DNA of 37,610 bases. It comes from Chrysochromulina tobinii. Its lineage: Eukaryota. This document shows, piece by piece, positions 1,315-37,610 of the stretch. A program made the translations under genes and the position numbers. The stretch lies in contig JWZX01002586.1 in NCBI GenBank assembly GCA_001275005.1, forward strand, positions 1-37,610, in the 5' to 3' direction. How positions within the stretch are numbered: position 1 is the stretch's first letter; each line of letters opens with the position of its first letter. The notes beneath the pieces are model-generated. The model was not told the origin of the DNA, did not search any database, and saw nothing but the letters and a program-made list of their open reading frames with translations.

Positions 1315-1401
1315 GTTTAACGGTCCGGCGGGCTGCAGAATTCGCCACCAAGATGTACATGTACATGTATACTCATCGGCTACACTTCAGAAGTGATGGC
1401 G

Positions 1402-1426
1402 GACTTGACTTGACTTGACTTGACTT
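1402..1426 (+). repeat. (GACTT)5 microsatellite in the divergent intergenic region
   Basis: Five perfect GACTT copies; an (ATGTAC)~3 repeat also lies at about 1353-1369. Confidence 0.9.
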
Positions 1427-14197: not shown

Positions 14198-14293
14198 GAG
14201 AAGGAACTAAATCCCTTTGAGGCCTAGTAGCTAGCGCCGCCTCCCCTTTTTCCTCGACCTCATCTTCTTACGAGACGCCCGGCCATTCAAGCG

Positions 14294-17200: not shown

Positions 17201-18707
17201 GTCAAGGTACAATCCCTCTGCGATTTCGTCAAGGTACAATCCCGAAGGGTTCGATTTCGTCCATCAAGGTACAATCCCTCTGCGATGCGCATCGCCGAAT
17301 GGGCACCGAGCCCGAGCGCCGCCGAGCATGTCTTGAGCAGCTGCACAGTATTGAGGCCGAGCGGCCGTGCTCGGGTCTCTTCTGTTTCGTCAAGCTGCGA
17401 GAGCGCCGCGGCGGGCGCTTCTCGCACGAGCTGGCAGCACACTGCAGCGACGCCGCGGTCGAAGACGCGAGAGCGACGCCAGTGCACCTGTGGGGAGGAG
17501 GGCGCCGTGCTGAGCACGTGCATGCGCGAAGACGCGAGAGCGACGCCAGTGCACCTGTGGGGAGGAGGGCGCCATGGTGAGCACTTGCATGCGCGAAGAC
17601 GCGTGAGCGACGCCAGTGCACCTCCAGCGACGGAGTCGTGGGCGCTCCCGGTGCCGCCGCCGCCGCCGCCACCTCCTCCATAGCCGATTTGGCGATGTCC
17701 CACTGCAAGGTGCCGCCGTACTCGGCGATGAATTCGGCCTTCGTGTACGCATTGCCGTCGGTGATGTCGATGCGCCGCTCTTCGCCCGCCTTCAACGGTG
17801 CTCCGCCGTGAGCGCCGCCGAGAGGGCCCTGCAACCAGCGCGGAGCGCCCGAGCCCCTGGGTCAGTTTCTGTAATCCGGGCTCATCAGCGCTCATCAGCG
17901 CTCATCAGCGCTCATCAGCGCTCATCAGCGCTCATCAGCGCTCATCAGCGCTCATCAGCGCTCATCAGCGCTCAACACCTGCAAGCGGGCCGCCAGCGTC
18001 CAGTACGGCTCGGGCACGAAGGCGGCGATCTCGAGGTGGCGCTGCACGACGAAGCCGAGGGCGGGCGTCTGGCATGGGCCGAAGCTGATCGTCGTGTTTG
18101 CCAGCCGCTTGATCCGGTCGCTCACTGACTGCGTCAAGTAGCGCGTGAATGCGACGCCTACCTTGAGATCCAGCTCCTGGCGCGCGTCCACCGCCGACGC
18201 CTCCGCCTCATTCGGCTGTGTGAGTGTCTCCATCGCGCGGCTGACGGACGCTGCCGAGACGGCGGAGAAGCGTGCGCGCCACACACGCCGCGCGTCGCCC
18301 GCTGCCGGACGCAGCGCTGGCAGCACGATGTGCATCACCTCGAAGCAGATGTTCTCGCCCTCACGGTCGCAATCAAGCCACAGGACGAGATGGGAGCAGC
18401 CCTTGGCCGCCTCGCGCAAGTGATTGCACACGGCACCGCTCGTAGGCGTCTTCACAGTGCCACACGAGAAGAGCTCGATCGGCGGACGATCCCACGAAGA
18501 GGCGTAAGGCTCTGTAAAGTCCAAGTTGAACACGTGGCCCTTGACCGACGTGACCCTAAACCTCGCGGGCTTGCCGAGAAAGGATCCGTCGAGCTCGTGC
18601 ACGTCTGTCTCCCCGTGCCGCACGCTCACAGCTCGCTCGTGTGCAAGAAATGTCGCAATCGCTGCGGCGAGCGAGGGCTTCTCGGCCACATGCAGGATGT
18701 GTTCCAT
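14294..18707 (-). CDS. TOP3B: DNA topoisomerase III beta; 8 exons: 18707-17979, 17828-17622, 17487-17273, 17068-16993, 16910-16836, 16575-16331, 16198-15907, 15526-14294
   Basis: TOPRIM motifs VAEKPSLA, TSVKGHV, LWLDCDREGENICFEV; then RQELDLKVG, SFGPCQTPALG, catalytic SYPRTEST, DAGDHPPITP, GIGTDASIATHI, IDPELVLPTVR and C-terminal Cys-rich zinc-ribbon motifs (CPLCAYELL, CPGCF). Seven GT-AG introns restore one open frame. Confidence 0.93.
15527..15906 (-). repeat. TOP3B intron 7: five tandem 76-bp units, each starting with GT and ending with AG
   Basis: Units 15906-15831, 15830-15755, 15754-15679, 15678-15603, 15602-15527. Each is a 46-nt cassette GTGCCGCTGATGGCCTCTGATGG...GCATGCTGATTG plus a 30-nt copy of the upstream exon end (...GGCACTCACCCAG). 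Confidence 0.9.
16199..16330 (-). other. TOP3B intron 6 (132 nt) with an internal duplicate of its exon/donor junction
   Basis: TG|GTATGC...CATCAG|GTAC restores ESGWYRVLP. The junction TGATTGAGAGTGGCTGGTATGCTGATTGCCGTG is repeated immediately as TGATTGAGCGTGGCCGGTATGCTGATTGCCGTG. Confidence 0.75.
16671..16820 (+). repeat. (TGGCAAGCAG)15 10-bp satellite inside TOP3B intron 5 (16835-16576)
   Basis: 15 perfect copies. Confidence 0.95.
17069..17272 (-). other. TOP3B intron 3 (204 nt): 27-bp tandem repeats of the donor junction, an inverted exon fragment and a 10-bp repeat
   Basis: TT|GTACCTTG...GATCAG|GTAC restores AEGLYMGGLLSYPRTEST. On the + strand, CAAGGTACAATCCCTCTGCGATTTCGT repeats at 17149/17176/17203 and (CGCACTCAGT)3 lies at 17091-17120. 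Confidence 0.8.
17488..17621 (-). repeat. TOP3B intron 2: two tandem 67-bp GT...AG units
   Basis: Units 17621-17555 and 17554-17488; each is a 29-nt copy of the exon 3 start (GTGCACTGGCGTCGCTC...) plus the 38-nt acceptor cassette. Confidence 0.88.
17881..17970 (+). repeat. (CTCATCAGCG)9 10-bp satellite inside TOP3B intron 1 (17978-17829)
   Basis: Nine perfect copies. Both intron junctions read TTGCAG|G. Confidence 0.95.
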
Positions 18708-18805
18708 TTGTTCTGAGCGCTCACGACGGCGCCCGTTTGGTTGAGAGCAATCGGCTCGTGGCCGTTTACGATAGCATTTTGGGCACACGAGTGCACTCAC
18801 GAGGC

Positions 18806-18888
18806 GTCTGTGCGAGCAGGTAGAGCAGGGCGTGAGGAGTGATTTTAGTCTGTGCGAGCAGGTAGAGCAGGGCGTGCGGAGTGATTTT
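18806..18888 (+). repeat. 42-bp-period tandem duplication upstream of TOP3B
   Basis: GTCTGTGCGAGCAGGTAGAGCAGGGCGTG(A/C)GGAGTGATTTT occurs twice. Confidence 0.85.
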
Positions 18889-19085
18889 TCATCGCATTTG
18901 ACCGTACAGATTCTCTTCGGCGTATGAATTCATACACATTTGACCGACACATCAACATTTTGTCCTCTAGTCACCAATTGCTAGCGCACTAGCTACTGTT
19001 CCCACTGTGACGGTACACTCCGCTCGCTCAGATTCGAATAACAGCCACAGCCGCCAAAGCTCGCCGTGTGCCGCGCAGTGTGACG

Positions 19086-22000
19086 TCACAGGGCCCCCAG
19101 CAAGTCACAGACCACTGTGTGGCCACTATCACGAGCGAGCGAAAGCGCGGTCTTGCCTGCAGCAGTCTGCACTTCCTTGCGCGCGCCAGCGCTGAGCAAC
19201 ATGTGGACGCAGTGCTGCTGGCCCGCCATCGCCGCATACATGAGCGCAGTATAGCCTGCCTCTGTTGCATGCGAGGGGACGACAGCAGCGTCGATGTCCG
19301 ATTGCGGGAGCACGCGCTTGAGCACCGTTGTCAGGCCGCCGAGGCTCGCCGCCATGAGCATTGTAAAGTTGTCGATGCTCACTACCTTGAGCGAGGCGCC
19401 TGCCTCAAGCAGGACGAGAGCAACCTGCTCGTGGCCATTTTGGGCAGTGAGCATCAAGGCGGTCCAGCCATCAGGCTGTGCCTGATTTGGGTCCGCCTTC
19501 GCCTCGAGCAGGACGAGAGCAACCTGCTCGTGGCCATTTTGGGCAGCGGACATCAAGGCGGTCGTGCCGTTGGACTCTGCCTTATTTGGGTCCGCCTTCG
19601 CCTCGAGCAGGACGAGAGCAACCTGCTTGTGGCCTTTTCCGGCAGCGAGCATCAAGGCGGTCACGCCATTGGGCTGTGCCTGCTGATTTGGGTCCGCCTT
19701 TGCCTGGAGCAGGACGAGAGCAACCTGCTTGTGGCCTTTTCCGGCAGCGAGCATCAAGGCGGTCACGCCGTTGGACCTTGCCTGCTGATTTGGGTCCGCC
19801 TCTTTGCCTCGAGCAGGACGAGAGCAACCTGCTCGTGGCCACTTAGGGCAGCGAACATCAAGGCGGTCATGCCGTCGGACCTTGCCTGATTTGGGTCCAC
19901 CTTTGCCTCGAGCAGGACAAGAGCAACCTGTTCGTGGCCATTTTGGGCAGCGAGCATCAAGGCGGTCACGCCGTCGGACGTTGCCATATTTGGGTCCGCC
20001 TTTGCCTCGAGCAGGACGAGAGCGACCTGTTCGTGGCCATTTTGGGCAGCGCACATCAAGGCGGTCCAGCCGTTGGACATTGCCATATTTTGGTCCGCCT
20101 TCGCCTCGAGCAGGGCGAGAGCGACCTGTACGTGGCCATTTCGGGCAGCGCACATCAAGGCGGTCAGGCCGTTGGACTCTGCCTTATTTGGGTCCGCCTT
20201 CGCCTCGAGGAGGACGAGAGCAACCTGCTCGTGGCCATTTTGGGCAGCGCACATCAAGGCGGTCCAGCCGTTGGACATTGCCATATTTGGGTCCGCCTTC
20301 GCCTCGAGCAGGGCGAGAGCGACCTGTTCGTGGCCATTTTGGGCAGCGAGCATCAAGGCGGTCCAGCCGTTGGACTCTGCCTGATTTGGGTCCGCCTTTG
20401 CCTCGAGCAGGACGAGAGCAACCTGCTCGTGGCCATTTTTGGCAGCGCTCATCAAGGCGGTCCGGCCGTCGGACTCTGCCTGATTTGGGTCCGCCTTTGC
20501 CTCGAGCAGGACGAGAGCAACCTGCTCGTGGCCATTTTGGGCAGCGCTCATCAAGGCGGTCCAGCCGTCGGACTCTGCCTGATTTGGGTCCGCCTTTGCC
20601 TCCAGCAGGACGAGAGCAACCTGCTCGTGGCCATTTTTGGCAGCGCTCATCAAAGCGGTCCGGCCGTCGGACTCTGCCTGATTTGGGTCGGCCTTTGCCT
20701 CGAGCAGGACGAGAGCAACCTGCTCGTGGCCATTTTTGGCAGCGCTCATCAAGGCGGTCCAGCCGTCAGACTCTGCCTGATTTGGGTCCGCCTTCGCCTC
20801 GAGCAGGACGAGAGCAACCTGCTCGTGGCCATTTTGGGCAGCGTACATCAAGGTGGTCCGGCTGTTGGACTTTGCCATATTTGGGTCCGCCTTCGCCTCG
20901 AGCAGGACGAGAGCAACCTGCTCGTGGCCATTTTGGGCAGCGCTCATCAAGGCGGTCCGGCCGTCGGACTGTGCCTGATTTGGGTCCGCCTTTGCCTCGA
21001 GCAGGACGAGAGCAACCTGCTCGTGGCCACTTCGGGCAGCGTACATCAAGGCGGTCACGCTGTCGGACTTTGCCATATTTGGGTCCGCCTTTGCCTCGAG
21101 CAGGACGAGAGCAACCTGCTCGTGGCCATTTTTGGCAGCGCTCATCAAAGCGGTCACGCCGTTGGACGCTGCCTGATTTGGGTCTGCCTTTGCCTCGAGC
21201 AGGACGAGAGCAACCTGCTCGTGGCCACTTCGGGCAGCACTCATCAAGGCGGTCACGCCGTCGGACTCTGTCTGATTTGGATCCGCCTTCGCCTCGAGCA
21301 GGACGAGGGCGACCTGCTCGTGGCCATCTTGGGCAGCGAGCATCAAGGCGGTCACACCGTCGGACCTTGCCTGATTTGGGTCCGCCTTTGCCTCGAGCAG
21401 GACAAGAGCAACCTGCTCGTGGCCAGCACTTTGGGCAGCGAGCATCAAGGCAGTCCAGCCGTCGGACTCTGCCTGATTTGGGTCCGCCTTTGCCTCGAGC
21501 AGGACGAGAGCAACCTGCTCATGGTCATTTTGGGCAGCGAGCATCAAGGCGGTCACACCGTCGGCCGCTGCCTGATTTGGGTCCGCCTTCGCCTCGAGCA
21601 GGACGAGAGCAACCTGCTCGTGGCCATTTTGGGCAGCGAACATCAAGGCGGTCATGCCGTCGGACTCTGCCTGATTTGGGTCCGCCTTTGCCTCGAGCAG
21701 GACGAGAGCAACCTGCTCGTGGCCATTTTGGGCAGCGAACATCAAGGCGGTCCTGCCGTCGGACTCTGCCTTATTTGGGTCCGCGTTTGCCTCGAGCAGG
21801 ACGTGAAGGCAGCGCTCGTGTCCAAAACTGCTCGCCCGCATGAGCGGAGTGCCACCGTCGGAATCGGCGAGCGCCGCATCCGCCCCTTGAGTGAGGAGCT
21901 GCTGCACGATCGGCTCGGCGCCCTCCTCCGCGGCGAGGTAGAGCGCGGTGCAGCCCTCGGCGCTCTGCGCATTGAGCGTGGAGGCGTTTGACGATTCCAG

Positions 22001-25000
22001 TAGCTTGACGATGGCCGCGAGTTGCTTGCGGCGGGACGCGACCATGAGCGCCGTCATCCTCCCCGCGTCCTGCGTGCGTGCGAGGGTCGCCAGGTCCCCC
22101 GTCGCGGCGGCGCGCAGCCGCTCCGTGCGCATGCACGCCTCGTCGGTGAACTCGCGGTCCGAGAGCGTCGGCTCAAAGAGGCGAACGACGGCGTGCTGCT
22201 TGGCGTTCCGTGCTACGTTGGCTGCGGACTGGTTCTGCATGTTCCTCTCCTCCTTGTCGGCGCCCTTTGCGACGAGCGCACGGCAGATGGCCACGTGCCC
22301 GCCGGCGGCGGCGCGGTGCAGCGGCGTGTTGACGCGCTCGTCGGCGACGAGCGGGTTGACGCCCGCGTCGAGCAGCGCCTCGACGAGCGCCGCGTCGCCC
22401 GCCCCCGCGGCGAGACGGAGGAGCGCGCCCGCGCGGTTGGACGCAACGACGAGCGCCTTGGTGCGCGGCAGGCCCTTCTTCTCCTCCCACCCCTGGATCT
22501 TGACGTCCACCTCGTCGCCCTCCACGCGTGCGACGACGGCCGGCAGCCAAGTCACGTCGCTGGCGAGCACGCGCTTGCCCACGACGAGCGCGTCCGCAGC
22601 AGCCAGCTTCCCCGCCTCGCGCGCCGCCTCGCGCGCCACGCCCTTGGCTGCCTCGAGCGCCGTGGGCAGCCACGCGGCAGGCAGCCCCTTGCGCACGAGC
22701 GTGGCAAGCACGCACAGCCGCCACGCCTCCTTGTCTGGCACGGCCGCCCCCTCGGCTACCGGCAGCTGCGCCGCCTTGACGAACGCGTCGCCAAACACCG
22801 CGCCACCCGCCTGCACGCCCATGAGAACGGCGTTCGTCCACCACACGCCCCACGCAAACGACGGCAGCGGCACGCCGCCATCGCCGATGGCGAGCATCGC
22901 ATAGTATTCCTGGAAGGAGAGGTGGAAGGCCTGCATCTGCAGCGGCTTCGCCTCGAGCAGGCGCACGAGCGGCAGCCCGTCTCGCGCCACCAGGGCGCGC
23001 AGCTCGTCGGCCGCACCCTGGGCGGCGGCCATGCCGATGCGCGCGCCGATGCGCGCGGCGGCGGCGCCGAGGTGTGCCTCGGTGATGATGCGCTGCTCGG
23101 CGGCGTGCGCCTCGAAGAAGGTGGCTTGCAGCAGCGCGCGCGCGTCGTCCGACACGGCGGCGCCCGACCGTTTTTGCATCGCGCCGGCCGCCACCTCGTA
23201 CAGCTCGGCGGTGGTAGTCGGCATGTCGATGCCGACACGCAGCTGCGCAATGGAGCACACCATCGAGAGCATGAGGGGGTTGGCGGTGACGCGGCGCTTC
23301 GTGCCGGCCTCGCCGCCGGCGTCGAGCGGCACCTTGTCGCGCAGGTAGGACTTGAGCGCGGACGCGCGCTTGTCGCCGAGCCGCGTGGTGAGGAAGGCCT
23401 CCTGCTGCTCGTCGCTCAGCGGAGCGAGGGTCAGCCTGTGGAACCCGGCGAAGCCCGCCTCGTCCAGGCCAGCCGGGCGTGAGGTGCACAGGATCACAAA
23501 TCCCTTGGGCGCGAGCACCTCGGCGACGTGCTTCTCGATGCGCGCCCGTTCGGCGCCCGCCTCGTCGAGCCCGTCGAGCAGCAGCAGCACGCGCCGCTCG
23601 TGCATCGCCGCGCGCAGCATCGCATAGTGCGGCGGCGCGCACGTGAGCTTGAGGCCGGCGTCGACCCAATCGTTCGCCGCGTCGAAGGCTGCCCCTTGCT
23701 CGGCGAGCCGCTTCTGGAGCTGCTCGGCGCGCACGAGCACGGGCACGAGCGGCTCGCGCCCGTCGTCCTCGGCGAGCCTGTCGACTTGCCCCAGCGCGTG
23801 CATGATGAGCTGCGACATGAGCCACGTCTTGCCCGCTGCCGGGCCGGCGGTCAACAGCGCGCACGTGCGTGCGCTGGAGCGCAGGTCGTGCAGCCACGCA
23901 CACAGCGAGCGTGCGTCGCGCACGGCGAGCGGCTTGCCGTTGGCATCGTGCCCCTCCACGCCGATGGGCACGCACTCCGTGAGCGTGCTGAGCTGCTTGC
24001 CGGAGAGGGCGTCGGGGATGTACGCGTGCTGCGCGCGCAGACAGTCGAGGTGCCACGCGCGCATCGACGCGAATCCGTCGTCGGCGGGCATCGGCGGCAA
24101 CGCCACCACCTGCGAGCCGGCGGCCGCCTCGGCGGCGAGCGCGAGCACCGGCTGCACCGCACCGACGATGCGCGTGACGTACTCACGGTAAAGGGCGGGC
24201 ACCGTGTCCATGTCGCCTTTGCCGGTGAAGGTGGCGCCGGCAATGCGGGTGAGGACCCGCTCGACGCGCTCGGCCAGCTCGCCGGTCGGCGCGACGCACG
24301 GCTCCGTGGGGCGGCCGCTGCGCAGCACGAGCACCTTGGACGGAAGCGCGTCGAGCGCCTCCCGCACGCGCGGCACCGCGCCCAGCCGTGCGAGCAGCTC
24401 GTGGCTCACGGCATCCTCAAAGACGCACCAGCCGCGCTCGTCGTACGGGCGCTCATTGTACAGCGTGTCGACGCCGTCGCACAGCTCAGGCCACGGCCCT
24501 GCGCGCTTGGCGGCGAGCGCCGCCTCGTGCGACGCGAAGCGCACGACGGGCGGGTTGCGCGTATGCTCGAACGCGACGATGGCACCGAAGCAGCCGAGTG
24601 TCTCGCGGACGGCGCCCTCCCCCTTCGTGGCTTTCAGCCCGAAGAGGCACAACGCACCGTCGAACGCCTCCGGCCGGGGCGGGATCTCGCGCGACTGCAG
24701 CACGGTGGTGCCGACGGCGGAGGCGTACACGTCGGCCATGACCATGATCGCGCGCTCGAAGGCGGCGCTCTCGACGGGCGTGCGCGTGCGGTTGGGCAGG
24801 TTCTGGAAGAGCGAGGCATAGTCCCAGAAGACGCCCTCGATGTGCGGGTGCTCCTCGAGGGCGGCGAGCACCATTTCCAGGCGCACGCCGTCCGGGTCGC
24901 ACTCGCCGGGCGACAGCCAGCTGTGGCTGAGCGCGCCCACGCCGCGGCTGCCGCGCCGGAGCAGCACGACGGCCTCCTCAGCCGAGAGGAAGGGCGATGA

Positions 25001-25894
25001 GAGGAACGGCGACTTTTCCCCCGATGCGAGGGACAGCGCCTCGAGCTCCTGTCGCCGCTTCAGCCGCCTCCCGTTTGGCTGCCGCCGCAGCCGCCGCAGC
25101 CGCCGCAGCCACGAGACACGCAGAAGCTTGATGTCGCCGGCGTGGAGCGCGTCGGCGAGCCGGTCGTCGAGTCTTGAGAGGACGCGAATGATCTCGGACG
25201 GTGCGCCCATGGCCACGGTGGGCCGCACAGCGTCGTCGTCGTCGATGTCGTCGAGGTTGATGTCGTCCCCGTTGTACAAGGCATTGGACCGCGTGGGGCC
25301 ATTGGACGGTCCCGATGAAAACAGCCCACGCGGCGTGAAGGCCAGCATGATCGCGTTTATCACGGAGGTGCCAATCTCTAAGATCGGGTTCTTCGTCTCG
25401 GCCGCCGTCTCCGTCGCCGCTCCGGCCACCGGCTTACAACTTCCGTCGTCTACAGACGTCTCGGGCACTGATTCGGCGCTGTCGGTCGTCTCGGGCACTG
25501 GTTCGGCAACCTTCATGTCTTCGGGTGCTGCCCGAGGGCCTGGCTCGACAGCGACAGGTGGCGATTCCGAAGGGCCATCCAGAACCTGCACGAAGAGCTC
25601 GGCTTGTGCGCCAGGCTTGCTTGCGGCGCAGCCGCCCCCTCGGACGCGCACCATCTCCGTCCAACAAGTCCTGAGGCTCACTGGCCGACCCGGCAGGGCG
25701 ACCGCAGAGCGGGCGCACTCTCGCGTCCGAAAACGCGGACGTCCAAGCAAAACTTCCCAGGAACGGCGTGAATGTGAATGCGAGTGACCACCGACCCGCC
25801 TACCGGTCGCGGCATCGACGGAGGTGGCGGCGGAAGAACTTGTCGCCGACGCGAAAACGGCGAAAATAAAGATCGGCCCGCGGATGATCGACAT
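19086..25894 (-). CDS. NLR-like STAND protein: HET-like domain (with RRM-like insert), NACHT NTPase, SH3/Tudor-like segment, long ankyrin array; 2-nt frameshift at about 19801
   Basis: HET-like SHSW...FWDYASLFQ...MADVYA...RGWCVFE. NACHT Walker A AGPAAGKT, Walker B LLLLDGLDE, CTSRP, NPLML, FHLSFQEY. Ankyrin consensus GxTALMxAAxNGHEQVALVLLEAKADPN. The start is uncertain: the ORF is open to 26404, with candidate Mets at 25894 and 25654. Confidence 0.85.
19400..21790 (-). repeat. About 24 near-identical 99-bp (33-aa) ankyrin repeat units
   Basis: Counted 20 units in the 2213-aa ORF and 4 after the frameshift. The scaffold is almost invariant; three units carry a one-codon insertion. Confidence 0.92.
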
Positions 25895-26416
25895 GATTGA
25901 CAGAACCCGTGACAGAAGCGCTCCGCCGCACCTACATCCGCTACATCTGCTTCGTACCCCGACGCCCGGTGGCACGGACCGTTGAGGCGGCGGCCCCAAA
26001 ACAAAGACGGCAGAGTTATGATGACGGTCGACAATGCCATAAAGGCATAAACCCCAAGATAAACCCATCCCCCCCCAACCCCCCACCTGATTGCCTATCA
26101 CAGTCCCGCCCGGTAGTATATGGCAGCGAGCACCAGGGAACACCGCTGTGTGCTCAGACTCTCCGAGAGACATTGCCGAGAGATCATGAGAGATCGACCT
26201 CACTACATGTAGCGAAACCTGTAGCGAAATTGAAGAGCGCTCTGGCTCAGTACTTGTGTTGACCGAGGGGTGCGGAGCCATCCTTACACAGATACACTGT
26301 GATGAGCTCGACCAGCGACGAAACTGTCGGACCAGAAGTTTTTTGGACCGCCATGAGTTGCCAAATCTGTCCACGCACGCTCTGAAAACATTTCTGGCCG
26401 CCACGATCGAGAAGGG

Positions 26417-29400
26417 ATGCCGCGATCGCCTAACGCTGCGTTGCCGAAGCTCCGCGCCGCGGCGCCGCGGACCACCGGCTCACCGTCCAGCAGGGCGGCA
26501 TCGACTCGCAAGGATGCCATGCCACGCGCCGCTTCGCCGCTCAAGTCCGGGAGGGGCCAGCAATCGCAGCGTGGGTCACGACAAAGCAAGGCCCCTGCGA
26601 GCCTCGTTACCATCGCTGGCCAGCCTCTTATGGACCTGGTGCCCGAGGAGCCACCAGAGGAGCTGAGTGGCTGTGCCGATGACGATGCCGAGCCCAAGTT
26701 CGATGCGATGGACGAGATCCAGTGGCTTCGAGACGAGCTGGCTGCCAAAGAGCAGGAGCTGGCCGACAAGGACCAAGAGAAAGCGCAGGCGCTGGCCGAT
26801 AAGGACCGGGAGCTGGCTGAACTGCGCGCGCGGCTTCTGTACGGCGGGTCGCTCCCACAGCCGACGTGCAAAACAATCCTCATCGACATGGACAACACGA
26901 TCTGCGACTTCGACGGCGAGGTCGTCCGCCGCTTCACCGACAAGTTCCCGGGCCAGACCATGCTCACGACGAGCGCGGCAACGCGCAAGAACTGGGGCAT
27001 CGCCGAGGACGTGAGGGAGCCGTACAGCGAGGAGGTCAAGAAGATCTTCCGCGAGTCGGGCTTCACCGAGTCGCTGCCGCCGATTGCCGGCGCGGCCAGA
27101 GCGCTCAAGGAGATGCTGGCCGAGGGCTACGACGTGCGCCTCTGCACGAGCCCGCTCGTGAATCAGCCAATGGGCGTGGGGGAGAAGTTCGTGTGGGTCG
27201 CTGCCGTGCTCGGAGATGAATGGAAGAAGCGCATCATCATCACGTCCGACAAGACGATGGTCAAGGGACTTATGCTCATCGATGATAAGCTTGCGATCGT
27301 CGACGAGAAGAGCGTATGCAACCCGCCGGAGTGGAAGCAGTATGCTGCATGCCGCCTCACACGTGACCACCCATTTGCTCGCAAGCCAACCCCAGTCACT
27401 CTCCTGTTCGAATCACCCCCCATTCACTCTCCTGTTCCAACCTCCCCCACGCGACGCTTTGTGGCGACGCAGAGTCATCTTTCGAAGGCCGTACCTCGAT
27501 CACTACGAGGACGAGCTCCAGAACCATACCGTGCTCGACAGCTGGAAGGATTGGCGAAGGGTCGTCGATCCTAGCTCGGCGGCCGCGCTGCAACCGGCGG
27601 ATGGCGCCGAGGAGTCTCGAAAGGATGCGGAGCTCGCCCCGTGGGAGCACGCCGTGGACGAGACGAGGCTGGCAAGTGTGGTCGCGTCCAGCTGGCAGCA
27701 GGAGCGCCCTTTGGACGGCTCCGGCGGAATCGTCCTTACCGATAGCGCCGGCAACGCACAGGGCGTCTTCGACGTGCTACTTCGTTCGCAGTGGACGCTG
27801 ATGGCATGGATCCGCCCAGAGTGCTATGCGCTCTCCGGAGATGAGAACGTGCGATTCTCGCTCTTTGGGTGCGGTCAGTCGTGGGAAGAGCGAGATGTAG
27901 CGAGCAGTCATCACAGGAATGCTCAGCCGTCGGGGGTCTCGTCGTACTTTCATGTCGAGACGAGTGGGCCGAGGATCCTGATTCGGTTGGGCAACGACAT
28001 CCTCAGCTCGGATGCCGAGCTGCTGCCGCAGGAGCAGTGGTCGCACGTGGCCATCGTGTACGACGGCGTGCAGCGGCGGCTGCAGCTGGTCGTCAACTCC
28101 ATGCTCGTGGCGCAGCTCGTGCCTGTGGATCCGCTGCGCTCTCCAAAGGTCCCGTCGCTCCGACGGCTCTATGTTGGCTCGCGTGGCGGGAAGTTGGTTA
28201 CGTTCATCGCAGGCACGACGTGGGCGTGGGCGAGTAAGGCACAGAAAGCTGGAGAGGCGGGCGCGCAGGAGCTGACGCTTGGCGAAGACGGGACGACCGT
28301 GTTCAAGGCTGCCAAGTCTAGGTGGAGCGTGCGTGACGAGGCTGAGCGGACGGTGCTCTGCGAGGACCTCGGCGGCCAGCGCGTCGAGCTGCGCTTCTCC
28401 GAGGATCTGCAGAGCTTCGTTGCCATCTCCCTTGGCGCCGAGATTGCAAAGGGCGAGCGCAACCGCGATGCCGGCGTGCACTCGCCGAGGCCTTTCAAGG
28501 GTCTTGTGCGGTCTGTGCGACTCGTTCCAAAGTCGCTGCCTTCGGTGCTTGTGCAGGCGGCGGGCAAGGTGCCCTTCATCCAGTTGGTAGTCTACTCGAA
28601 AGCAGAGGATGCGTCAACTGTCAAGGTCCTCGTCATGAGTGCGCGCCTGCCCCAAGCACACATTGCACGCCCGCTAAAGTGGCCACTTGTTGGCTGACCC
28701 CAATCTTTTTTGCCCCCCTGTGTTGCCAGCTCACACCGAGTCCGCCGACGGGCTGCTCTCTCAAAAGCTTGGCCTGATAGAGGGGATCGTGGGCGATAGC
28801 GAGGACCCGCTGAGCGCGGCGAACAGGCTGATCACAGCACATGGCATCGGACGCAGTCTTGGCGATCCAGTAGTGCTCAAAGTCTCGAAGCAGCCGTGGA
28901 ATGAGCTCACCGCAGCAATGGAGCCACGAGTGCTGTACCACGAGCTCGAACACTTGCTCGAGTGGGGCGAGTCGCCTCCCTCCTTTATCGCGCTCGCCGA
29001 GTGGAAGGACCTCTCCACAGCGCGGGGCTTCTTCTCTACGGCGCCGCCCCCCGCAGAGCCTTCGGCGCTACTTGAGAGATCGCTCACCGCCGGTGCCACC
29101 CATCACAGCGTCTCCCCGGCTGGTACTGGAAGCACGCACTCGCCGAGTGGCGCCAGGAAGAGCAAGCTGAGCAAGCAAGCTTCGGCCATGCAAGGAGAGC
29201 TGGAAGACGCGGCGAAGAGCGCTCAGATGAGCACGACGCACTCGCGCGTTCACTGGGGGTGGTTCTCGACGGACGAAGCGCATGGCATGTGCAGGCTCGC
29301 CGTGCAGAACCGTACCGCCCAGACGAATGCGCGCGCGCGGCAGCTTGAGAGTGGCGGCGTGGAGTCCTGGACCAGCCCCTCCAAGCGGACTCATCCTGCG

Positions 29401-32400
29401 AAGGGGGCGACGGACGAGGGCATCGAGATTGGTGGCACAATAGTCGTGGATCCGGAAGATGTACTGACCCCGCGGAAGAAGGTCATGCTCGTCGAGCTGC
29501 ACCAAAGCCCGAAGGCCAAGACCATTCGCTTCCAGACCCTCAACACGGGCTTCTCGACAGCGGTTGTCCTGCTCGTGCGCGCCGTGGGCGAGACTGGCGT
29601 CGCGCTCGAGCCGACGATTGTCAAGATCGACGTGCGCAAGGAGCTCGAGTCCGAGATCCAACTGCACGAGCAGATGCAGAAGCACCTCGGCTTCAACATG
29701 CCACAGCTCCTCGCAGTCACCGACTCGGCTGAGCGCGAGCTCATCGGGTACAAGCAATCGTTCGCGGGCGCCTGCTGGCAGATGCCCGAGCTCGCGTCGG
29801 TTGGCGGCGACCTCGCCGTGCCGCTGGAGCGGCTGATCCGCCAAGAGCTCATCCGCGACGCGGTCGACGGCATCTCTTCCTTTTCGCTGGGCGACGTGAG
29901 CGTATCGAGGGTGCTCGAGACGCTCATGGGCGACATCGTGCTGCAGCTGTGCAAGCGGACGGCCTCACGATGCGATGCACCGCTGCTCGAGCCGATCCTC
30001 GGCCCAAAGACGCGAGACCACGTAGAGACCATGCGCGACATGACGACTGGCTCGGACAGGGCGACGTTCGAGGAGCTCCTGGCATTGCTCGACAACAAGA
30101 GCTCGCGGCTGCCATTTGAGTCGGGGCACGAGCCGATTCGGGCCATGTGCCACGGCGACCTGCACGGCGGCAACGTCATGATCGACTCGCGCGGCAACCC
30201 GTGGCTAATCGACTGCGGCATGTCCAAGCCGGCCGACAAGGGCTACCCGCTGATGGATGCGGCCAAGCTCGAGTGCTGCTTCTTGTTTGCATACGTGCTC
30301 GCTCCACTCACAGTGGACCACATCAAGGGCGCGGAGCCCAACGAGCTCGTCGATTGGCTCAGCCTCGGGCGCAAGGACGTTGCGCATCTCCAAACGATCG
30401 CCGCCGGCTGCGCCACCAAGCAGGAGCTGCTCGATAAGCTCGCGAGCGAGTCGATGCTTGCACAGGTCAAGGTGCGCCTCGAGGAGCCCGACTTGTGCGA
30501 AGAGTGGTTAAAGATGGCTGCCGGCCGGCTCGACGAGCTGATGAATGTCGATGAGCTCACAGCGTGCATGCGGCGAACGGACTACATGAACCCAGCGCGT
30601 CGACGCCCCCCGGGGCTGGCGACGCAAGGCGACAGGCTCTCAAAGTACCGCAAGAGCCTCGACGTCGCGGATGGGTTCGCAGGCAAGATCCGCCGCTACA
30701 TTTCCGCACTCTCCACCTGCCTCAAGGCGGACGACAAGGCGCGTGGCTCCCTCGACAGCCACGTCCTCAACCTTGCGATGCATCTTCTCTTCTATTCGAT
30801 CCGCTTCACGCTGCGCGGCTACCCCACCTCTAGCCCGATGCACAAGCGGCTCGCGCAGCACGTCAGCGCGCGCCTCGCCCGGGTTGTCCTCGACGCAGTC
30901 AGGGCGCAGTCTTCAGAGGCCCGGCCCGCTGTTGCGACCATTGTGCAGCCGGCGTCCTATGTTCAGTACGAGCACGGTCAGGTGCTGCAGGTGTGGGCCA
31001 ATGGGCGGGACGGTACCGCAGTTGTCGAGGACGGAGATGGTGAGCAGCTTGTACGCATGGGAGGGCAAGCGGTCCCCCTCGCGCGGTTCTTGGAGACGCA
31101 GCTGCCCCTGGCTGCTCCAGTGTTAAAGTACAACCTGGGGACGAAGCTCGTCGTCGACGGCACCAGCGTCTTGATCGTGGAGCGCGAGGGCTTGGCCAAC
31201 AGCTATACGTGCGCAGCCTCAAGCGGCGGCTCTGAGCGCCAGAAGGTTCACCTGACGCCATCCAACCACACGCTTGAGCACGCGGACCCGTCGGGGCTCC
31301 TCACGATGCACACGAGGGTGGCGTGGTCGAGCCTCGAGCTCCGGCTCGGCGACGGTGCATTTGCATCTCTTGGTGAGGTCGCAGAGCCGACAGCGAACGC
31401 GGTGGTGCGCGTCAAGCTCGACGACGTGCGGCGCACTGTCGACGCTCGTCAAGAGCACAAGGGCCGCGACGAGCCTAGAATGGGTGAAGGGCTCGGGGGT
31501 GGAGACGGGGGCGGAGGCGAGGGTGGCGGCGGCACAGGCGGTGGGCTCGGAGGTGGAGGCGACGGTGGCGGGCTCGGCGGCGGCCACGGCGAGGACGGAG
31601 GAGGCGGCGCGTTCGTCGCCGCCAACGACCCCGACTCCCGAGCTCAAGTCCATTCCGGCGCGTGGCTCACGGGCTGGGTGATGAATCACGACGGTGCCCA
31701 AGCGCGGACATGCACCGTCGCCGTGCCCATCTATGCCGACGGCCAGCTGGTGCTCCTCGACGGCGAGGTGGGGACGCTGCAGAGCGACGCCACGGGCCTC
31801 AATCTGTGCCGCTGGGATCTCGACACGAAGCGGGTCGAGCCCCGCCAAGTTTTGGCCATCGGCGGAGGGACGCCTCTGCCGACCTTGGTACGCCCGATGG
31901 CCCTGCTCACGTACAAGGCGGGGCAGTGGATTCGGCTGAAGGATGGTGCCTCATGCAGGCCGCCCGATAAGGACCTCGAACACGCGTGGCGGCTCGCGCA
32001 GCTGCAGCCCCACGACCAGCCCGACGCCCGCGGCTGCAGTGTGGTCGTCGTCCGCGACCAGGGCTCCGTCTGCCTGCTGGCCGCCAACCACTCCCCGTGC
32101 GTCGACCACAACATGGACCACGCCATCGACTTTTGCTCATACCAGGCGCTGGTGCGCACCGCGCTCGGCACGATTATCGACGTGCTCAGCGCGCAGCGGC
32201 TCGATCTGATGCTCCAGTGCGTCAACCTCAAGGTCAAGGGCAACAACGCCGACGCGTTCACGACCATCATGGAGGAGGTCAAGGTGCATGCGCCCAAGGG
32301 CCAGCCACCTGCCATTCTCATCCGCGCCGAGGCGGCGGGCGGGAAGACGACGTTTTCCAAGCGCTTCGTGCTCCTGTGCACGATCGAGCAGTGGGGTCGT

Positions 32401-35400
32401 CACGTGGCCGCGCCCACGCCCGACCCCGTCTTCTACGTGCCCGTGCTCGTCTTTGTCGTCGACCTTGTCAAGGTGCTCAAGAAGCAGCGCGGCGCCGACG
32501 GCGGCAACCTGCTGCTCATCCACCTTCAGTCGCACCTGGGCGCCCACACACGCCACTGTAAGCACACCCGCCCGAGACGGCCACAGCCCTCGCCAGCCGT
32601 CGCACGCGCTGGCGCCTTGCGCGCGCCTGTCGGCCCCCCTGACCATCGCGTGCGCGTGTGCCCTTCTCTCGCGCAGACGCCTTTGTGCTGCAGGCGTGGC
32701 TCGACGGCCGGCTGATTGTCATCCTCGACGGCTGGGACGAGTGCGATCGCTTGTGCAAGGACGAGATGCAGCGGTACATTACGACGATGCTCCTCGGCCG
32801 CGTCTCGCTCGTCATCACGTCGCGCCCCGCCGCCGTCGACGGCGACGCCTTCTTTGGCGAGGCCTTTCAGCGTTTCGAGCTCGCGGGGCTCGACGGGCCG
32901 ATGCAGGACCACGTGGCCAAGTACCGGCTGCCGGTGACCAAGCTGCCCGCGTACAAGCGGACGCTGCATCAGAGCGTCGGCCTCACCGAGCTCTGCCGCA
33001 ACCCGCTGCTCCTGTCGATGCTGCTGACGGTCATCGACACGCGCGAGGACAACGCGTCGCAGCGGGAGCTCAACCGCTTCGCCCTCTACAACACTATCGT
33101 GACGGCGCTCGTCGAGCGCCTCGAGAAAAAGGCCCTGGGCGCCCACGACGGCGCCCACGATGACGTTGCCGCGGCCGAGGGCTCACTGATGGAGTTTACC
33201 TGCCACCTCGCGCACGCGACGCACAGCCTGAGCACGGGCAGCAAGAAGGTGAACGACGAGGTGCGCGGGCGCGTGCGGCTCGCGGGCGCCGCGAAGACGT
33301 GGGAGGGCGTCCACATGAGCATCCTGCAAGGCAGGTTCCCCATCCTGCAGTTGCAAGAGCAGGAGGCCATGTTTGCGCACCTCTCGCTGCAGGAGAGCCT
33401 CACGTTCATGGCCGCGGCGCGCTACCCGGAGGCCTGCCCCGTGCGCCTGGACGACGTGCTCAAGGAGCATCGCTGGTGGCTTGAGGTGGTGCGATTCGCG
33501 GCCGAGTGCGCCGCCGAAGAGCCCGAGTACACGCGCGCGTTTGCCGACAACCTGCTGCGCGGCCAGGCCGAGCACCGCATCAACGTGGCGGATGCGAGCA
33601 TGTACCAGATCTTTGCGCCGCTCGGCACGGTCCTCCAGATGGCGAGCGGCGCGCCGCGCCTGCGCCTCACAATCAGCCACAAGCTCGGCAAGGTCGACGC
33701 GTCGGCGTTTGCCGCGTTGCTGCCCTCGCTCGCGCGAATGCTGTCGGCGCTCGAGCTGCTCGGTCAGGCCTTTGACGACGACGACTGGGGCGTCATCGCT
33801 GGGCACGTGCGAGGGATGGAGGCGCTCGAGACCCTCAGCCTGAATGGGAGCGTCGTCAGCCCCGAGGTGCGCGCCGACCTGGTGCAGAGCGTGCCCACGC
33901 TCGCGGCGCATCTGCGCCACCTCGACCTCGGCGGCCTTGAGGTGGGCGCGGACGAGGCGCTCGCGCTCGTCTCGACATGCCGCGCGCTGCAGACGCTCAG
34001 GCTCGGCGAGTGGGCGGTGCCCGTGGGCGAGCTGCGATCGGGGGGAGAGGCGGTGTCGACGGGCGGCCAGGCGGTGGGCGAGGCCGAGGGCGCCGTCGTG
34101 GGCGCGCTCCTCAGGGCGAGCACCAGCCTGACGACGCTCGATCTGAGCCGCTCGTGGTGCGCGGCCGAGGCGGCGCGGCTCATCGGCGAGGGCCTGCGCG
34201 AGAGTGCGGCGCCGCTGGCCGAGCTGCGGCTCGCCAACGTGTGGTACACGACGGACGGTCGGATGCCGGCTGCGGCGGTCTGGGAGCGGCAGGCGGCCCT
34301 GGTGAGCGGCGCGTGCCGTCTGTCGCTGCGCGAGGTCGAGTGCTCGGCGCAGGCGATCGAAGCGACGGAGACCGCCGCGCTGCAGCGGGGCTTGCTGCTC
34401 TTTGCGCCGGAGCTCAAGGTCGCGAGCGCCACGCTCGGCGACGGCGGGCGGAGCGTGCGCCTTGCGGACGCCAACGGGCGGGCGCTGCTCGGCGCGGTCT
34501 CGCCGATGGTCGAGCTCGTGGTGCAGCAGTGCACCGATCCTGCTGGCTGCCGCATCGGCGCGACGCTGCCGGGCAAGGGCGCCCTGTTCAGCTCTCTGGG
34601 CACAGACGCCGAGAGCTGGGGCTACTTGGCGGACGGTAAAATCAGGCGCAATGGCTCCGATGTCCAGAGCGGCCTGCCCACCTACAAGGCGGGCGATCGG
34701 ATCCGCATGACGCTCGCCGGCGGCGTGCTCGCGTGGCACATCAACGGCCAGAGGGCCGCCGAGGTGCGCGGCGTGCCGACCGGCGTGCACCTTGGCGTCG
34801 GCCGGTTTAATGGGACGGTCGAGGTGCGCATCGAGCGTGCCGCGGTGGCCGGCGCGGCGGGGTGCTCCGTGATGCTGCGGCCGCTGTGCGGGCTGATGGG
34901 TCGCGAGGGCAACGCGCTGCGCACGGTGCGGCTGGGTGGCAACGGCGCGTGGGCCGAGGGCGACGGCGCGACGCTCGCGGCGGCGCTGGGCGCGGCGTCG
35001 TGCGTGGTGGCGGAGCTCGACGTGAGCCGGTGCGGCCTGGGCGCGGACGAGGCGCTCGCGCTCTTCGCGGCGGGCCGCGCGCTGCAGACGCTCAGGCTCG
35101 GCGAGTGGGCGGTGCCCGTGGGCGAGCTGCGGTCGGGGGGAGAGGCGGTGTCGACGGGCGGCTTGGCGGTGGGCGAGGCCGAGGGCGCCGTCGTGGGCGC
35201 GCTCCTCAAGGCGAGCACCAGCCTGACGACGCTCGATCTGAGCGGCTCGTCGTGCGCGGCGGCGGCGCTGGCGCGGCTCAGCGAGGGCCTGAAGGCGAGT
35301 GCGGCGCCGCTGGCCGAGCTGCGGCTGGGCGGGCTGATCCACGGCGAGGGCGCAGCGAGCGTGGCGGCGCGGCTGGCGGCGCTGGTGCGCGGCGCTTGCC

Positions 35401-37610
35401 GGCCGTCACTGCGGCTCATCGACTGCACGAAGCAGGCGGGCGGCAAGGCGGGCGTGTGCGCGCTGTTTGCGGCTGAGGGCGAGGGCGTGGTGGCCTCGCT
35501 CGCGGCGCTCATGTCGACGGCAGGCAACGCTCTCACGACGGTGCAGCTGGGCGGCAACGGCGCGTGGGCCGAGGGCGACGGCGCGACGCTCGCTGCGGCG
35601 CTGGGCGCGGCGTCGTGCGTGGTGGCGGAGCTCGACGTGGGCGGGTGCGGCCTGAGCGCGGACGAGGCGCTCGCGCTTGTCGCGGCGGGCCGCGCGCTGC
35701 AGACGCTCAGGCTCGGCGAGTGGGCGGTGCCCGTGGGCGAGCTGCGGTCGGGGGGAGAGGCGGTGTCGACGGGCGGCTTGGCGGTGGGCGAGGCCGAGGG
35801 CGCCGTCGTGGGCGCGCTCCTCAGGGCGAGCACCAGCCTGACGACGCTCGATCTGAGCGGCTCGTCGTGCGCGGCGGCGGCGCTGGCGCGGCTCAGCGAG
35901 GGCCTGAAGGCGAGAGTGCGGCGCCGCTGGCCGAGCTGCGGCTGGGCGGGCTGATCCACGGCGAGGGCGCAGCGAGCGTGGCGGCGCGGCTGGCGGCGCT
36001 GGTGCGCGGCGCTTGCCGGCCGTCACTGCGGCTCATCGACTGCACCAAGCAGGCGGGTGGCAAGGCGGGTGTTTGCGCGCTGTTTGCGGCTGAGGGCGAG
36101 GGCGTGGTGTCCTCGCTCGCGACGCTCATGTCGACGGCAGGCAACGCTCTCACGACGGTGCAGCTGGGCGGCAACGGCGCGTGGGCCGAGGGCGACGGCC
36201 GCCGCGCGTTTGCATCAGCGCTGGGCGCGGCGTCGTGCGTGGTGGCGGAGCTCGACGTGAGCGGGAGCGGCCTGGGCGCGGACGAGGCGCTCGCGCTCGT
36301 GGCGGCGGGCCGCGCGCTGCAGACGCTCAGGCTCGGCGAGTGGGCGGTACCCGTGGGCGAGCTGCGATCGGGGGGAGAGGCGGTGTCGACGTGCGGCCAG
36401 GCGGTGGGCGAGGCCGAGGGCGCCGTCGTGGGCGCGCTCCTCAGGGCGAGCACCAGCCTGACGACGCTCGATCTGAGCGGCTCGAGATGCGTTCCGGCGA
36501 CGCTGGCGCGGCTCAGCGAGGGCCTGAAGGCGAGCGCGGTGCCGCTGGCCGAGCTGCGGCTGGGCGGGCTGAGGCCCGGGTCAGATGGGAGCGTCTGTGG
36601 CGCCGAGGTGCGCGCCGACCTGGTGCAGAGCGTGCTCACGCTCGCGGCGAACCTACGCCACCTCGACCTCGGCGGCCTCGAGGTGAGCGCGGACGAGGCG
36701 CTCGCGCTCGTCTCGACGTGCCGCGCGCTGCAGACGCTCAGGCTCGGCGAGTGGGCGGTGCCCGTGGGCGAGCTGCGATCGGGGGGAGAGGCGCTGTCGT
36801 TGATCGGCCAGGCGGTGGGCGAGGCCGATGGTGCCGTCGTGGGCGCGCTCCTCAGGGCGAGCACCAGCCTGACGACGCTCGATCTGAGCGGCTCGTCGTG
36901 CGCGGCCGAGGCGGCGCGGCTCATCGGCGAGGGCCTGCGCGAGAGCGCGGCGCCGCTGGCCGAGCTGCGGCTCGCCAACGTTTGGTACACGACGGACGGT
37001 CGGATGCCGGCTGCGGCGGTCTGGGAGCAGCAGGCGGCCCTGGTGAGCGGCGCGTGTCGTCAGTCGCTGCGCGCGGTCGAGTGCTCTGCGCAGGCGATCG
37101 GCGCGACGGAGACCGCCGCGCTGCAGCGGTGCTTGATGCTCTTTGCGCCGGAGCTCAAGGTCGCGAGCGCCACGCTCGGCGACGGCGGGCGGAGCGTGAG
37201 GCTCGCGGACGACTACGGGCGGGCGCTTCTCGGCGCGGTCTCGCCGATGGTCGAGCTCGTGGTGCAGCAGTGCTCCAATCCTGGTGGCTGCATCATCGGC
37301 GCGGCGCCGCCGGGCAAGGCCGCCCTGTCCAGCTCTCTGGGTGCAGACGCCGAGAGCTGGGGCTACTTTGGGGACGGCAGGATCTTTAACAAGGGCTCCG
37401 CTGTCCAGAGCGGCCTGCCCACCTACAAGGCGGGCGATCGGATCCGCATGACGCTCGCCGGCGGCGTGCTCGCGTGGCACATCAACGGCCAGAGGGCCGC
37501 CGAGGTGCGCGGCGTGCCGAGCGGCGTGCACCTTGGCGTCGGCCGGTGGCTTGGAACGGTCGAGGTGCGCATCGAGCGTGCCGTGGTGGCCGGCGCGGCG
37601 GGGTGCTCCG
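26417..37610 (+). CDS. Giant multidomain NLR-like protein, 3'-truncated by the window: coiled coil, 5'(3')-deoxyribonucleotidase (HAD), LamG/ConA-like, degenerate Nudix, APH/PKL kinase-like, SH3-like repeats, NACHT, LRR with embedded SPRY domains; introns 27340-27472, 28639-28729, 32558-32676; 2-nt frameshift at about 35913
   Basis: ILIDMDNTICDF/LCTSP/DKT..LIDD (NT5C-type HAD); WTLMAWIRP...WSHVAIVYDG (LamG); CHGDLHGGNVMID...WLIDCG (kinase-like); AEAAGGKTT, ILDGWDE, ITSRP, NPLLL, FAHLSLQE (NACHT); LTTLDLS/LQTLRLG (LRR); LGTDAESWGY...GDRI...WHING (SPRY). Three GT-AG introns fuse four ORFs in frame (EWKQ-VIF, VLVM-THTE, RH-YAFVLQAW). Confidence 0.8.
33845..37610 (+). repeat. Hierarchical coding repeats: 615-bp LRR units (about 34908, 35523, 36140) within an approximately 2.74-kb LRR+SPRY super-repeat (33864 vs 36605)
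   Basis: Near-identical nucleotide blocks recur at offsets of 615, 617 and 2741 bp; the extra 2 nt matches the AG insertion at about 35913. Confidence 0.85.

What the first reader, a model, noticed from the sequence alone, without database searches (positions are those of the whole stretch)
19086..37610. Head-to-head pair of NLR-like NACHT genes: a candidate sensor/executor immune locus in an alga
Seen: two very large NACHT genes diverge from a spacer of about 520 bp (25894 and 26417). They share family-specific segments: pre-NACHT IPDALSGKQLSTLTECV vs IIDVLSAQRLDLMLQCV, and HYAMLRAAMHERRVLLLLDGLDE vs HYAFVLQAWLDGRLIVILDGWDE. One has a HET-like effector and ankyrins; the other has several enzyme or decoy domains plus LRR/SPRY. 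Known: plant NLR pairs (RPS4/RRS1, RGA4/RGA5, Pik-1/Pik-2) are adjacent, with an integrated-domain sensor and an executor, and fungal HET-NACHT-repeat proteins trigger cell death. Inference: a convergent paired immune receptor system, possibly antiviral.
Basis: partly seen in the sequence, partly recalled or inferred. Interest (0 to 1): 0.82.

Follow-up and report, generated by a model that had tools for sequence, protein, structure and literature searches.

The report
Shuffled algal immune receptors, side by side
Two immune-receptor-like genes of a freshwater alga sit back to back, but they are likely two self-contained members of a large, scattered, module-swapping receptor family, not a dedicated sensor-executor pair; the family's predicted cell-death domain carries an unusual inserted RNA-binding-type fold.

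Summary
The head-to-head layout is real: an independent assembly (L020) repeats it. The window is Chrysochromulina tobinii. Three corrections follow. The left gene probably starts at 25654, not 25894. The 'shared segments' are family-wide. The left gene as assembled is a chimera: its long ankyrin tail belongs to another paralogue.

The left gene is one of a dispersed family found at 20 sites. At 0 of 17 other sites with upstream flank is the next gene upstream an NLR, although 10 of the 17 have a divergent neighbour. Integrated domains occur throughout the family. The right gene (nucleotidase, LamG, kinase, NACHT, LRR/SPRY) keeps its catalytic motifs, and a second kinase-like NACHT giant stands unpaired.

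A true pair is not excluded (about 0.27). Linkage probably persists in a second strain, and the real partner has an unusually fixed ankyrin tail.

The more novel result is the family. Its HET/TIR-like domain keeps an invariant GWCxxE motif and carries a cleanly inserted RRM fold. A diglycine-plus-myristoylation-like leader occurs at 11 of 20 sites. My searches found no description of it.

The parts
25616..25654 (-). Probable start of the left gene: R-V-R-G-G followed by G-C-x-x-S-K, a diglycine plus N-myristoylation-like leader (both consensus motifs recalled)
   Evidence: Motif at 11 of 20 sites, once each, only at the 5' end of the NLR gene in 320,805 bases read in six frames; paralogue similarity ends here
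24230..25210 (-). HET/TIR-like alpha/beta effector domain of the left gene
   Evidence: AlphaFold2 model pLDDT 83.6, pTM 0.81 with 29 sequences; motif blocks conserved; no Pfam, NCBIfam, PADLOC, PHROG or Atlas family named it
24455..24673 (-). RRM-fold insertion inside the effector domain
   Evidence: Structure Z about 10 over 70-80 residues to RRMs; Pfam RRM_1 in 13 of 29 members at E<=5, best 3.8e-5; an RRM-less relative, P0183, skips exactly profile positions 186-252
24416..24433 (-). GWCxxE motif; predicted catalytic helix of the TIR/HET type
   Evidence: G260, C262 and E265 invariant in 29 of 29; Glu and neighbouring Cys are the TIR alphaC catalytic residues in PMC9153377
22829..24100 (-). 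NACHT module of the left gene
   Evidence: Pfam NACHT E 1.1e-4, under the cut-off; relatives pass the cut-off; Walker A/B and sensor-1 motifs present
22949..23172 (.). Switch point of the assembly mosaic (paralogue A above, paralogue B below)
19086..22357 (-). Long homogeneous ankyrin array with a 2-base frameshift near 19801; belongs to paralogue B (neighbour of the topoisomerase gene), not to the right gene's neighbour
   Evidence: 0 differences to L005/L007 from 22900 to 18900; Pfam; frameshift
25655..26416 (.). Spacer between the start codons, with a 40-base element (26246-26285) that many other contigs share
   Evidence: no Rfam match; element absent from the other 38 loci and from viral contigs
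26876..27560 (+). Right gene: HAD-type 5'(3')-deoxyribonucleotidase domain, split by intron 27340-27472
   Evidence: Pfam NT5C E 8.9e-14; solved deoxyribonucleotidases E 3.5e-21; DxDxT and DD motifs present; intron 1 inferred from domain continuity
27780..28133 (+). Right gene: laminin-G/concanavalin-like domain
   Evidence: Pfam E 4.7e-7
28639..28729 (+). Intron 2 of the right gene
   Evidence: RNA joint 28638>28730, GT..AG, in runs X13 and X15
29520..30400 (+). Right gene: TCAD9/APH-type kinase-like domain with Lys, HxD..N and DxG motifs
   Evidence: Pfam TCAD9 63.8 bits (cut-off 40), APH E 1.4e-7; motifs; boundaries approximate
32143..33425 (+). Right gene: divergent NACHT, split by intron 32558-32676
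   Evidence: Left-family profile 25 + 62 bits; longest branch in the tree; the NCBI model P0121 uses the same splice
33844..37610 (+). Right gene: repeated LRR and SPRY-like modules, frameshift near 35914, open at the window end
   Evidence: Internal repeats 82-95% identical; 73-83% identical to modules in left-family proteins P0111/P0112; SPRY weak, E 0.031

Best explanation
The two genes are neighbours from a large, scattered NLR-like family of Chrysochromulina, and each likely works as a self-contained receptor, not as one half of a fixed pair. Shown: both have a NACHT switch with its nucleotide motifs, C-terminal repeats and N-terminal enzyme-like domains; family members exchange N-terminal domains, inserts and tails; most sit next to ordinary genes. 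Inferred for the left type: a ligand bound by the repeats would trigger nucleotide exchange and oligomerisation, clustering the HET/TIR-like domains. Their invariant Cys and Glu would then cleave NAD+ or nucleic acid, with the inserted RRM fold supplying or gating the substrate, and the infected cell would die. Inferred for the right type: activation would release its own kinase and deoxynucleotidase, or these domains would act as baits for it. The likely opponent is a giant virus; this is not shown.
For: 118 relatives with ankyrin, WD40, LRR or SPRY tails. 38 loci fall into 20 sites; NACHT DNA identity is 92.9-98.4% among 12 ankyrin-clade sites. A second NACHT was found in 1 of 38 loci, L020, the window's own site. 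No divergent-strand family hit at 17 of 17 other sites with flank. Nearest upstream gene is divergent at 10 of 17 (Sec61/SecY, NUDIX, dCMP deaminase, thioredoxin, EGF repeats, five without a Pfam name) and same-strand at 7. Extra domains in left-family proteins: SPRY, Mind-bomb SH3, Hint plus Fic, dynein stalk, weak PDZ; 7 of 101 have an insert of over 90 residues before Walker A. The right gene's tail module recurs inside P0111. P0166 (L038), a second kinase-like NACHT-LRR giant (E 6e-12 to the right kinase), has a dehydrogenase gene upstream and no NLR in its flanks. In a second strain the orthologue of the left gene carries another effector subtype, 40% identical against 94-97% for NACHT and distal tail. 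With 100-200 such genes among 16,777, at least one head-to-head pair is expected by chance with P 0.14-0.69 (gene count from PMC4580454).
Against: The family size in this genome is unknown; at 60 genes the chance figure is only 0.05-0.10. Only 7 of the 17 other sites had the 7.8 kb of flank needed to reach a NACHT as distant as the right gene's, and 3 had under 5 kb. The LRR-tailed clades were sampled at one site only. The true partner's ankyrin tail is atypical: repeats 42% alike against 70-87% at six other sites, and 90-97% conserved in other strains. P0015 and P0142 share a contig length of 51,910, so linkage probably persists. The right gene lacks the HET-like domain and has a very long NACHT branch, as sensors often do. 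HET/TIR identity was not confirmed by any library.
Confidence: 0.58

Rival explanations
1. A true sensor/executor pair: the right protein senses viral attack through its nucleotidase, LamG, kinase and SPRY domains and holds the left protein off; the left protein binds it with a fixed ankyrin tail and kills through its HET/TIR-like domain.
For: Geometry confirmed. Complementary anatomy: the effector motif is only in the left gene. Very divergent right NACHT. Fixed, non-homogenised tail in the true partner. Linkage probably kept in a second strain. Near-identical RNA pieces unique to each gene in one run, X11.
Against: 0 of 17 other family sites have an NLR upstream. Effector subtype is swapped in the second strain, whereas plant pairs co-evolve and chimeric pairs fail (PMC13725568 passages). 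The right gene keeps catalytic and NACHT motifs, and its analogue P0166 is unpaired. Synteny between strains about 4% apart is expected for any neighbours.
Confidence: 0.27
2. The two are independent receptors kept together because a short two-way promoter switches both on during infection; they do not bind each other.
For: Spacer of about 760 bases; both genes are covered by RNA contigs in 4 of 4 runs; a NACHT gene is among those raised in virus-resistant Gephyrocapsa huxleyi (PMC12489294 passages).
Against: Short divergent spacers to housekeeping genes are the commonest setting of this family (10 of 17); contigs cannot show expression levels.
Confidence: 0.1
3. One or both genes are decaying copies or non-immune signalling ATPases.
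For: Frameshift near 35914 in the right gene's repeats; weak Pfam NACHT scores; no function tested.
Against: The right gene is open for 3,050 aa, spliced in wild RNA and 92-96% conserved in other strains; the true left gene is intact at 1,570 aa in nine contigs; shuffling and homogenised repeats match fungal NLR behaviour (PMC10197012 section 13).
Confidence: 0.05

Closest known systems
Fungal NLRs of the HET-NACHT-WD40/ankyrin type (HET-E, HET-D, HET-R of Podospora anserina)
   Same: Effector-NACHT-repeat order, exchangeable ankyrin/WD40 tails, homogenised repeats, strain-level turnover; HET homologues are reported from Haptophyceae (PMC4986451 section 16; PMC10197012 section 13).
   Different: LRR tails are common here; an RRM fold is inserted in the effector domain; a diglycine-myristoylation-like leader is present; Pfam HET is not matched.
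Plant paired NLRs (RPS4/RRS1, CSA1/CHS3, DSC1/WRKY19; RGA4/RGA5 and Pik recalled)
   Same: Divergent adjacent genes; one partner rich in non-canonical domains.
   Different: NACHT, not NB-ARC; the partners share only 25% in the switch and have no common N-terminal domain; sisters of the 'executor' are unpaired; the effector domain is swapped between strains.
TIR NADases and 2',3'-cNMP synthetases (plant RPP1, L7)
   Same: An alphaC-like motif with Glu and a neighbouring Cys (PMC9153377 passages).
   Different: The fold match to TIR was not obtained; the RRM insert has no counterpart that I found; activity untested.
Ectocarpus NB-ARC-TPR and ROCO-LRR candidate receptors
   Same: Algal, fast birth and death, shuffled repeats (PMC3341825 passages).
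   Different: Other switch domains; about half are clustered there, while this family is mostly dispersed.
TCAD9/APH kinase-like domain and NT5C deoxyribonucleotidase (Pfam PF19974, PF06941)
   Same: Significant matches with catalytic motifs in the right gene.
   Different: Here fused with LamG, NACHT and LRR/SPRY in one eukaryotic protein of over 3,000 aa; only three close homologue clusters were found.

Membership tests
NLR-like STAND receptor (NACHT type) | Central NACHT with Walker A, Walker B, sensor-1 and winged-helix motifs | tested here: met
   Both genes; Pfam under cut-off but family profile and motifs agree. Walker A lacks the two usual leading glycines throughout the family.
NLR-like STAND receptor (NACHT type) | C-terminal repeat domain | tested here: met
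   Ankyrin (left, P0125); LRR with SPRY-like modules (right)
NLR-like STAND receptor (NACHT type) | Ligand-triggered oligomerisation and defence output | not testable with these tools
   No functional data
Fungal-type HET-domain NLR | N-terminal HET (PF06985) or TIR-like domain | tested here: inconclusive
   No Pfam HET match for the window domain, and none among the 25 of 96 families listed for 29 members; fold lists were filled by the RRM; motif order fits the recalled HET consensus; Cys and Glu invariant
Paired sensor/executor NLRs | Head-to-head genes with a short shared spacer | tested here: met
Paired sensor/executor NLRs | Integrated domain marking one partner as sensor | tested here: inconclusive
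   The right gene has several, but so do many left-family proteins, and the left gene has an RRM insert
Paired sensor/executor NLRs | Pairing recurs across the clade | tested here: not met
   0 of 17 other sites have an NLR upstream; flank was limiting at some
Paired sensor/executor NLRs | Conserved linkage and co-evolution | tested here: inconclusive
   Linkage in a second strain inferred from equal contig length only; effector domain swapped there
Paired sensor/executor NLRs | Exclusive binding; sensor represses executor; both needed | not tested
   No complex prediction was sent; needs experiments
Canonical RNA-binding RRM | RRM fold | tested here: met
   Z 10.1, rmsd 3.6, 74 residues (6kor_A); Z 10.0, rmsd 2.2, 72 residues (5d78_A)
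Canonical RNA-binding RRM | RNP1/RNP2 aromatic residues on the sheet | tested here: inconclusive
   Column counts show mostly Cys, Pro, Ala and Val at the expected places; register and consensus are recalled

The most novel reading that the evidence does not exclude
Haptophytes have an undescribed NLR class built as a double tripwire for giant viruses. A protease that cuts after the ubiquitin-like Gly-Gly would expose a myristoylation glycine and send the receptor to membranes. An RRM grafted next to the TIR/HET catalytic helix would feed or gate RNA for NAD+ or nucleic-acid cleavage. At this locus, one member with a fixed ankyrin tail would guard a giant nucleotidase-kinase NLR, a pair evolved independently of plants.
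Probability: 0.2. Interest if true: 0.87.

Novelty: new variant of a known kind. Interest (0 to 1): 0.6.

Why it matters
Antiviral mechanisms of bloom-forming haptophytes are largely unknown. In Gephyrocapsa huxleyi, TIR, LRR and NACHT genes rise in resistant cells, but the TIR genes there carry no nucleotide-binding or LRR domains (PMC12489294 passages). This family supplies complete receptor-effector proteins with a one-residue test (the invariant Glu) and a candidate RNA input. It would also give a route to the enzymatic activity of HET-type domains, named as open in PMC10197012. In practice, the public gene models KOO28318.1 and KOO35150.1 are probably reciprocal chimeras.

Tried and rejected
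No whole genome is held and the metagenome contigs could not be extended, so no genome-wide count was possible. The one search of protein representatives and the first viral scan used a wrong reading frame and say nothing; the viral scan was repeated in frame and found no relative. Scans with the effector alignment found nothing in viral or prokaryote contigs; their patterns came partly from the NACHT. The nucleotidase gave one distant viral locus at 27% and none in genomes. A search for longer relatives of the right NACHT found none, limited to 644-2,000 residues. The single-sequence fold failed (pLDDT 36). TIR or HET entries were not among the rows listed by Foldseek or the wide structural search, which the RRM filled; this does not exclude the fold. 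The Atlas gave unnamed haptophyte clusters under 0.9 and no named hit. A search with the HET family over one viral record and 14 controls rang nowhere. A guessed degenerate Nudix box near 28750 got no support. Weak eIF2-alpha, SpoU and DUF4030 matches in relatives have no passing stretch and are probably repeat artefacts. No complex prediction was sent: the interface is unknown and the right gene has no deep alignment. Read depth was not used as copy number or expression. The tree is the quick version, midpoint-rooted, 54 rows chosen at 90% identity from 121 cores, and the right gene's place in it is unsure. The eight earlier findings returned concern fungi and an archaeon and were not used; searches returned nothing. 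The Ciliophrys preprint (passages) was irrelevant.
Full report
Source and layout. The top homologue of the left protein is an NCBI Chrysochromulina tobinii protein on a contig of 37,610 bases, and the right gene matches Ctob_003964. That assembly was made from 454 and Illumina reads merged with Phrap into 3,472 contigs with 16,777 genes (PMC4580454, passages; 'NACHT' does not occur in its main text). The left frame is open from 26479 to 19763 on the minus strand; the right gene is spread over plus-strand frames from 26357 to the window end.

Right gene. Three GT-AG introns (27340-27472, 28639-28729, 32558-32676) give 3,050 aa without a stop up to 35911. Intron 2 is shown by RNA joints in 2 of 4 freshwater RNA runs. 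Intron 3 agrees with the NCBI model and with an RNA contig whose match ends at 32677. Intron 1 is inferred only. Domains in order: deoxyribonucleotidase (E 3.5e-21 to solved structures), LamG, TCAD9/APH kinase-like, NACHT, repeated LRR and SPRY-like modules. Catalytic and NACHT motifs are present. The part up to 33888 lies on one contig with 0 differences in 3 of 4 DNA runs, while the tail draws many similar contigs. The tail module is 73-83% identical to a module inserted before the Walker A of left-family protein P0111. Orthologues at 92-96% exist in other samples. A 2-base frameshift near 35914 lies in the repeats and could not be checked.

Left gene. The likely start is 25654: paralogue DNA similarity and RNA loose ends stop there. 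The domain before the NACHT folds confidently with an alignment (pLDDT 83.6). Residues 176-255 match RRM folds at Z about 10. A natural relative without NACHT, P0183, aligns in four collinear blocks and skips exactly that part (E 2e-7 among three targets), so the RRM is an insertion. Right after it, Asn, Tyr, Gly, Cys and Glu are invariant in 29 of 29 sequences. In plant TIRs the alphaC Glu is catalytic and a neighbouring Cys is needed for nucleic-acid cleavage, and HET domains share that Glu (PMC9153377, passages). HET homologues are reported in Haptophyceae (PMC4986451, section 16). My call of 'HET/TIR-like' rests on these statements, the alpha/beta order and a recalled HET consensus; no library confirmed it. 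The RRM's RNP aromatics look mostly lost, so RNA binding is uncertain.

The window's left gene is a mosaic. Against contigs from separate assemblies, the window equals L020 from 34112 to about 23170 and equals L005/L007 from 22900 down to at least 12859. L020 continues into a different, shorter, intact ankyrin tail (P0125, 1,570 aa, nine contigs). L005/L007 continue upstream into a different effector subtype and no right gene. The NCBI protein KOO35150.1, on a 5,141-base contig, is the reciprocal: B-like NACHT start, 100% A tail. In a second strain the A tail (P0015) and the right-gene orthologue (P0142) both lie on a contig of 51,910 bases; P0125 and P0144 share 34,172, the length of L020's contig, which supports the logic. 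At five places the window differs from both A and B. A misassembly is most likely; a real reciprocal exchange is not excluded. Short-read assemblies also mix paralogues here (124 differences inside one gene with near-identical flanks).

Is pairing the rule? Six peptides of the left NACHT gave 38 loci (41 confirmed of 107 pattern matches), which fall into 20 sites, 18 apparently from the same culture. A profile from 116 left-family cores, without the right gene, found a second NACHT only in L020 and the window. For the 17 other sites with a defined 5' end (L006 and L032 left out), no divergent-strand match to any held protein was found; 14 had at least 5 kb of flank and 7 had at least 7.8 kb. 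The nearest upstream gene is divergent at 10 and same-strand at 7. Related neighbours do occur at 3 of 19 other sites, none head-to-head: a tandem family gene at L006, a relic at L002, and the tail-to-tail P0183 gene at L014. A second kinase-like NACHT-LRR giant, P0166, has no NLR in 3.1 kb upstream or 3.9 kb downstream. The shared segments are family-wide. Under random gene order, one or more head-to-head pairs are expected with P 0.05-0.10 for 60 genes, 0.14-0.26 for 100 and 0.45-0.69 for 200. The true number is unknown; 121 cores from mixed samples form 81 groups at 95%.

What favours a pair. The right gene lacks the effector domain and has by far the longest NACHT branch. The true partner's ankyrin repeats are 42% alike (four repeats caught) against 70-87% at six other sites; two further sites could not be measured. 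Its tail is 90-97% conserved in other strains. Run X11 holds near-identical RNA pieces unique to each gene. Against this, the second strain's partner has a different effector subtype (40% against 95% to site L003), whereas Arabidopsis pairs co-evolve and fail as chimeras (PMC13725568, passages).

Leader motif. Eleven of 20 sites carry R-[VI]-R-G-G followed by G-C-x-x-S or M-G-A-G-A-S, once each and only at the gene's 5' end, in 320,805 bases. From recall, this resembles a ubiquitin C-terminus followed by a myristoylation signal, and some large DNA viruses have proteases that cut after Gly-Gly. Cleavage is a hypothesis. The paper search for it (listing only) showed nothing relevant.

Print. Searches for haptophyte or Chrysochromulina with NACHT/NLR (listings) and related ones (57, 89, 93, 112) found no description of this family. 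The library lacks most subscription journals, and I read no supplements; those of PMC12489294 and PMC4580454 could list such genes. PMC12489294 (passages) reports one NACHT gene raised in resistant G. huxleyi. PMC3341825 (passages) and PMC10197012 (passages and section 13) give the algal and fungal parallels.

Verdict. The geometry is real, but the dedicated pair is the less likely reading (0.27). The family, with its RRM-bearing effector and leader, is a new variant of fungal-style NLRs. Interest 0.6.

Noticed in passing
window 26246-26285: A 40-base element shared by 12-14 other contigs per DNA run with unlike flanks and very high summed depth, also seen in RNA runs; no Rfam, viral or other-locus match.
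   Followed up: partly
L038:3131-12847 (P0166): Single-exon 3,238-aa protein: weak Tpt1/KptA-like match (E 0.0012), kinase-like region lacking the catalytic Asp, NACHT, LRR.
   Followed up: partly
L014:14339-16712, minus strand (P0183): Gene with a hydrophobic N-terminus, a HET-like domain without RRM, and LRRs but no NACHT; its first half is also fused to the end of NLR P0074 (69%).
   Followed up: partly
P0106, P0110: Family members ending in Hint plus Fic domains, or in a dynein stalk.
   Followed up: no
L025:3-1736: P-loop protein resembling (from recall) helicases of mobile elements, upstream of a family gene in a non-culture contig; only a weak AAA_16 match, no PHROG match.
   Followed up: partly
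L007 versus L021, position about 6110: Two assemblies share the DEAD-box helicase end and the NLR but differ upstream: another repeat-driven join.
   Followed up: no
window 1-18929: Ordinary genes: methyltransferase, SHIPPO-repeat protein, EGF-exostosin, bromodomain-ET, Tubby, CLC channel, type IA topoisomerase; at least 12859-18929 flanks paralogue B.
   Followed up: partly
window 15526-15937: Short tandem repeat with a 76-base offset, seen in self-overlapping matches to L005/L007.
   Followed up: no
L014:9167-13312: Family member that goes from the leader almost directly to the NACHT, with no effector domain.
   Followed up: no
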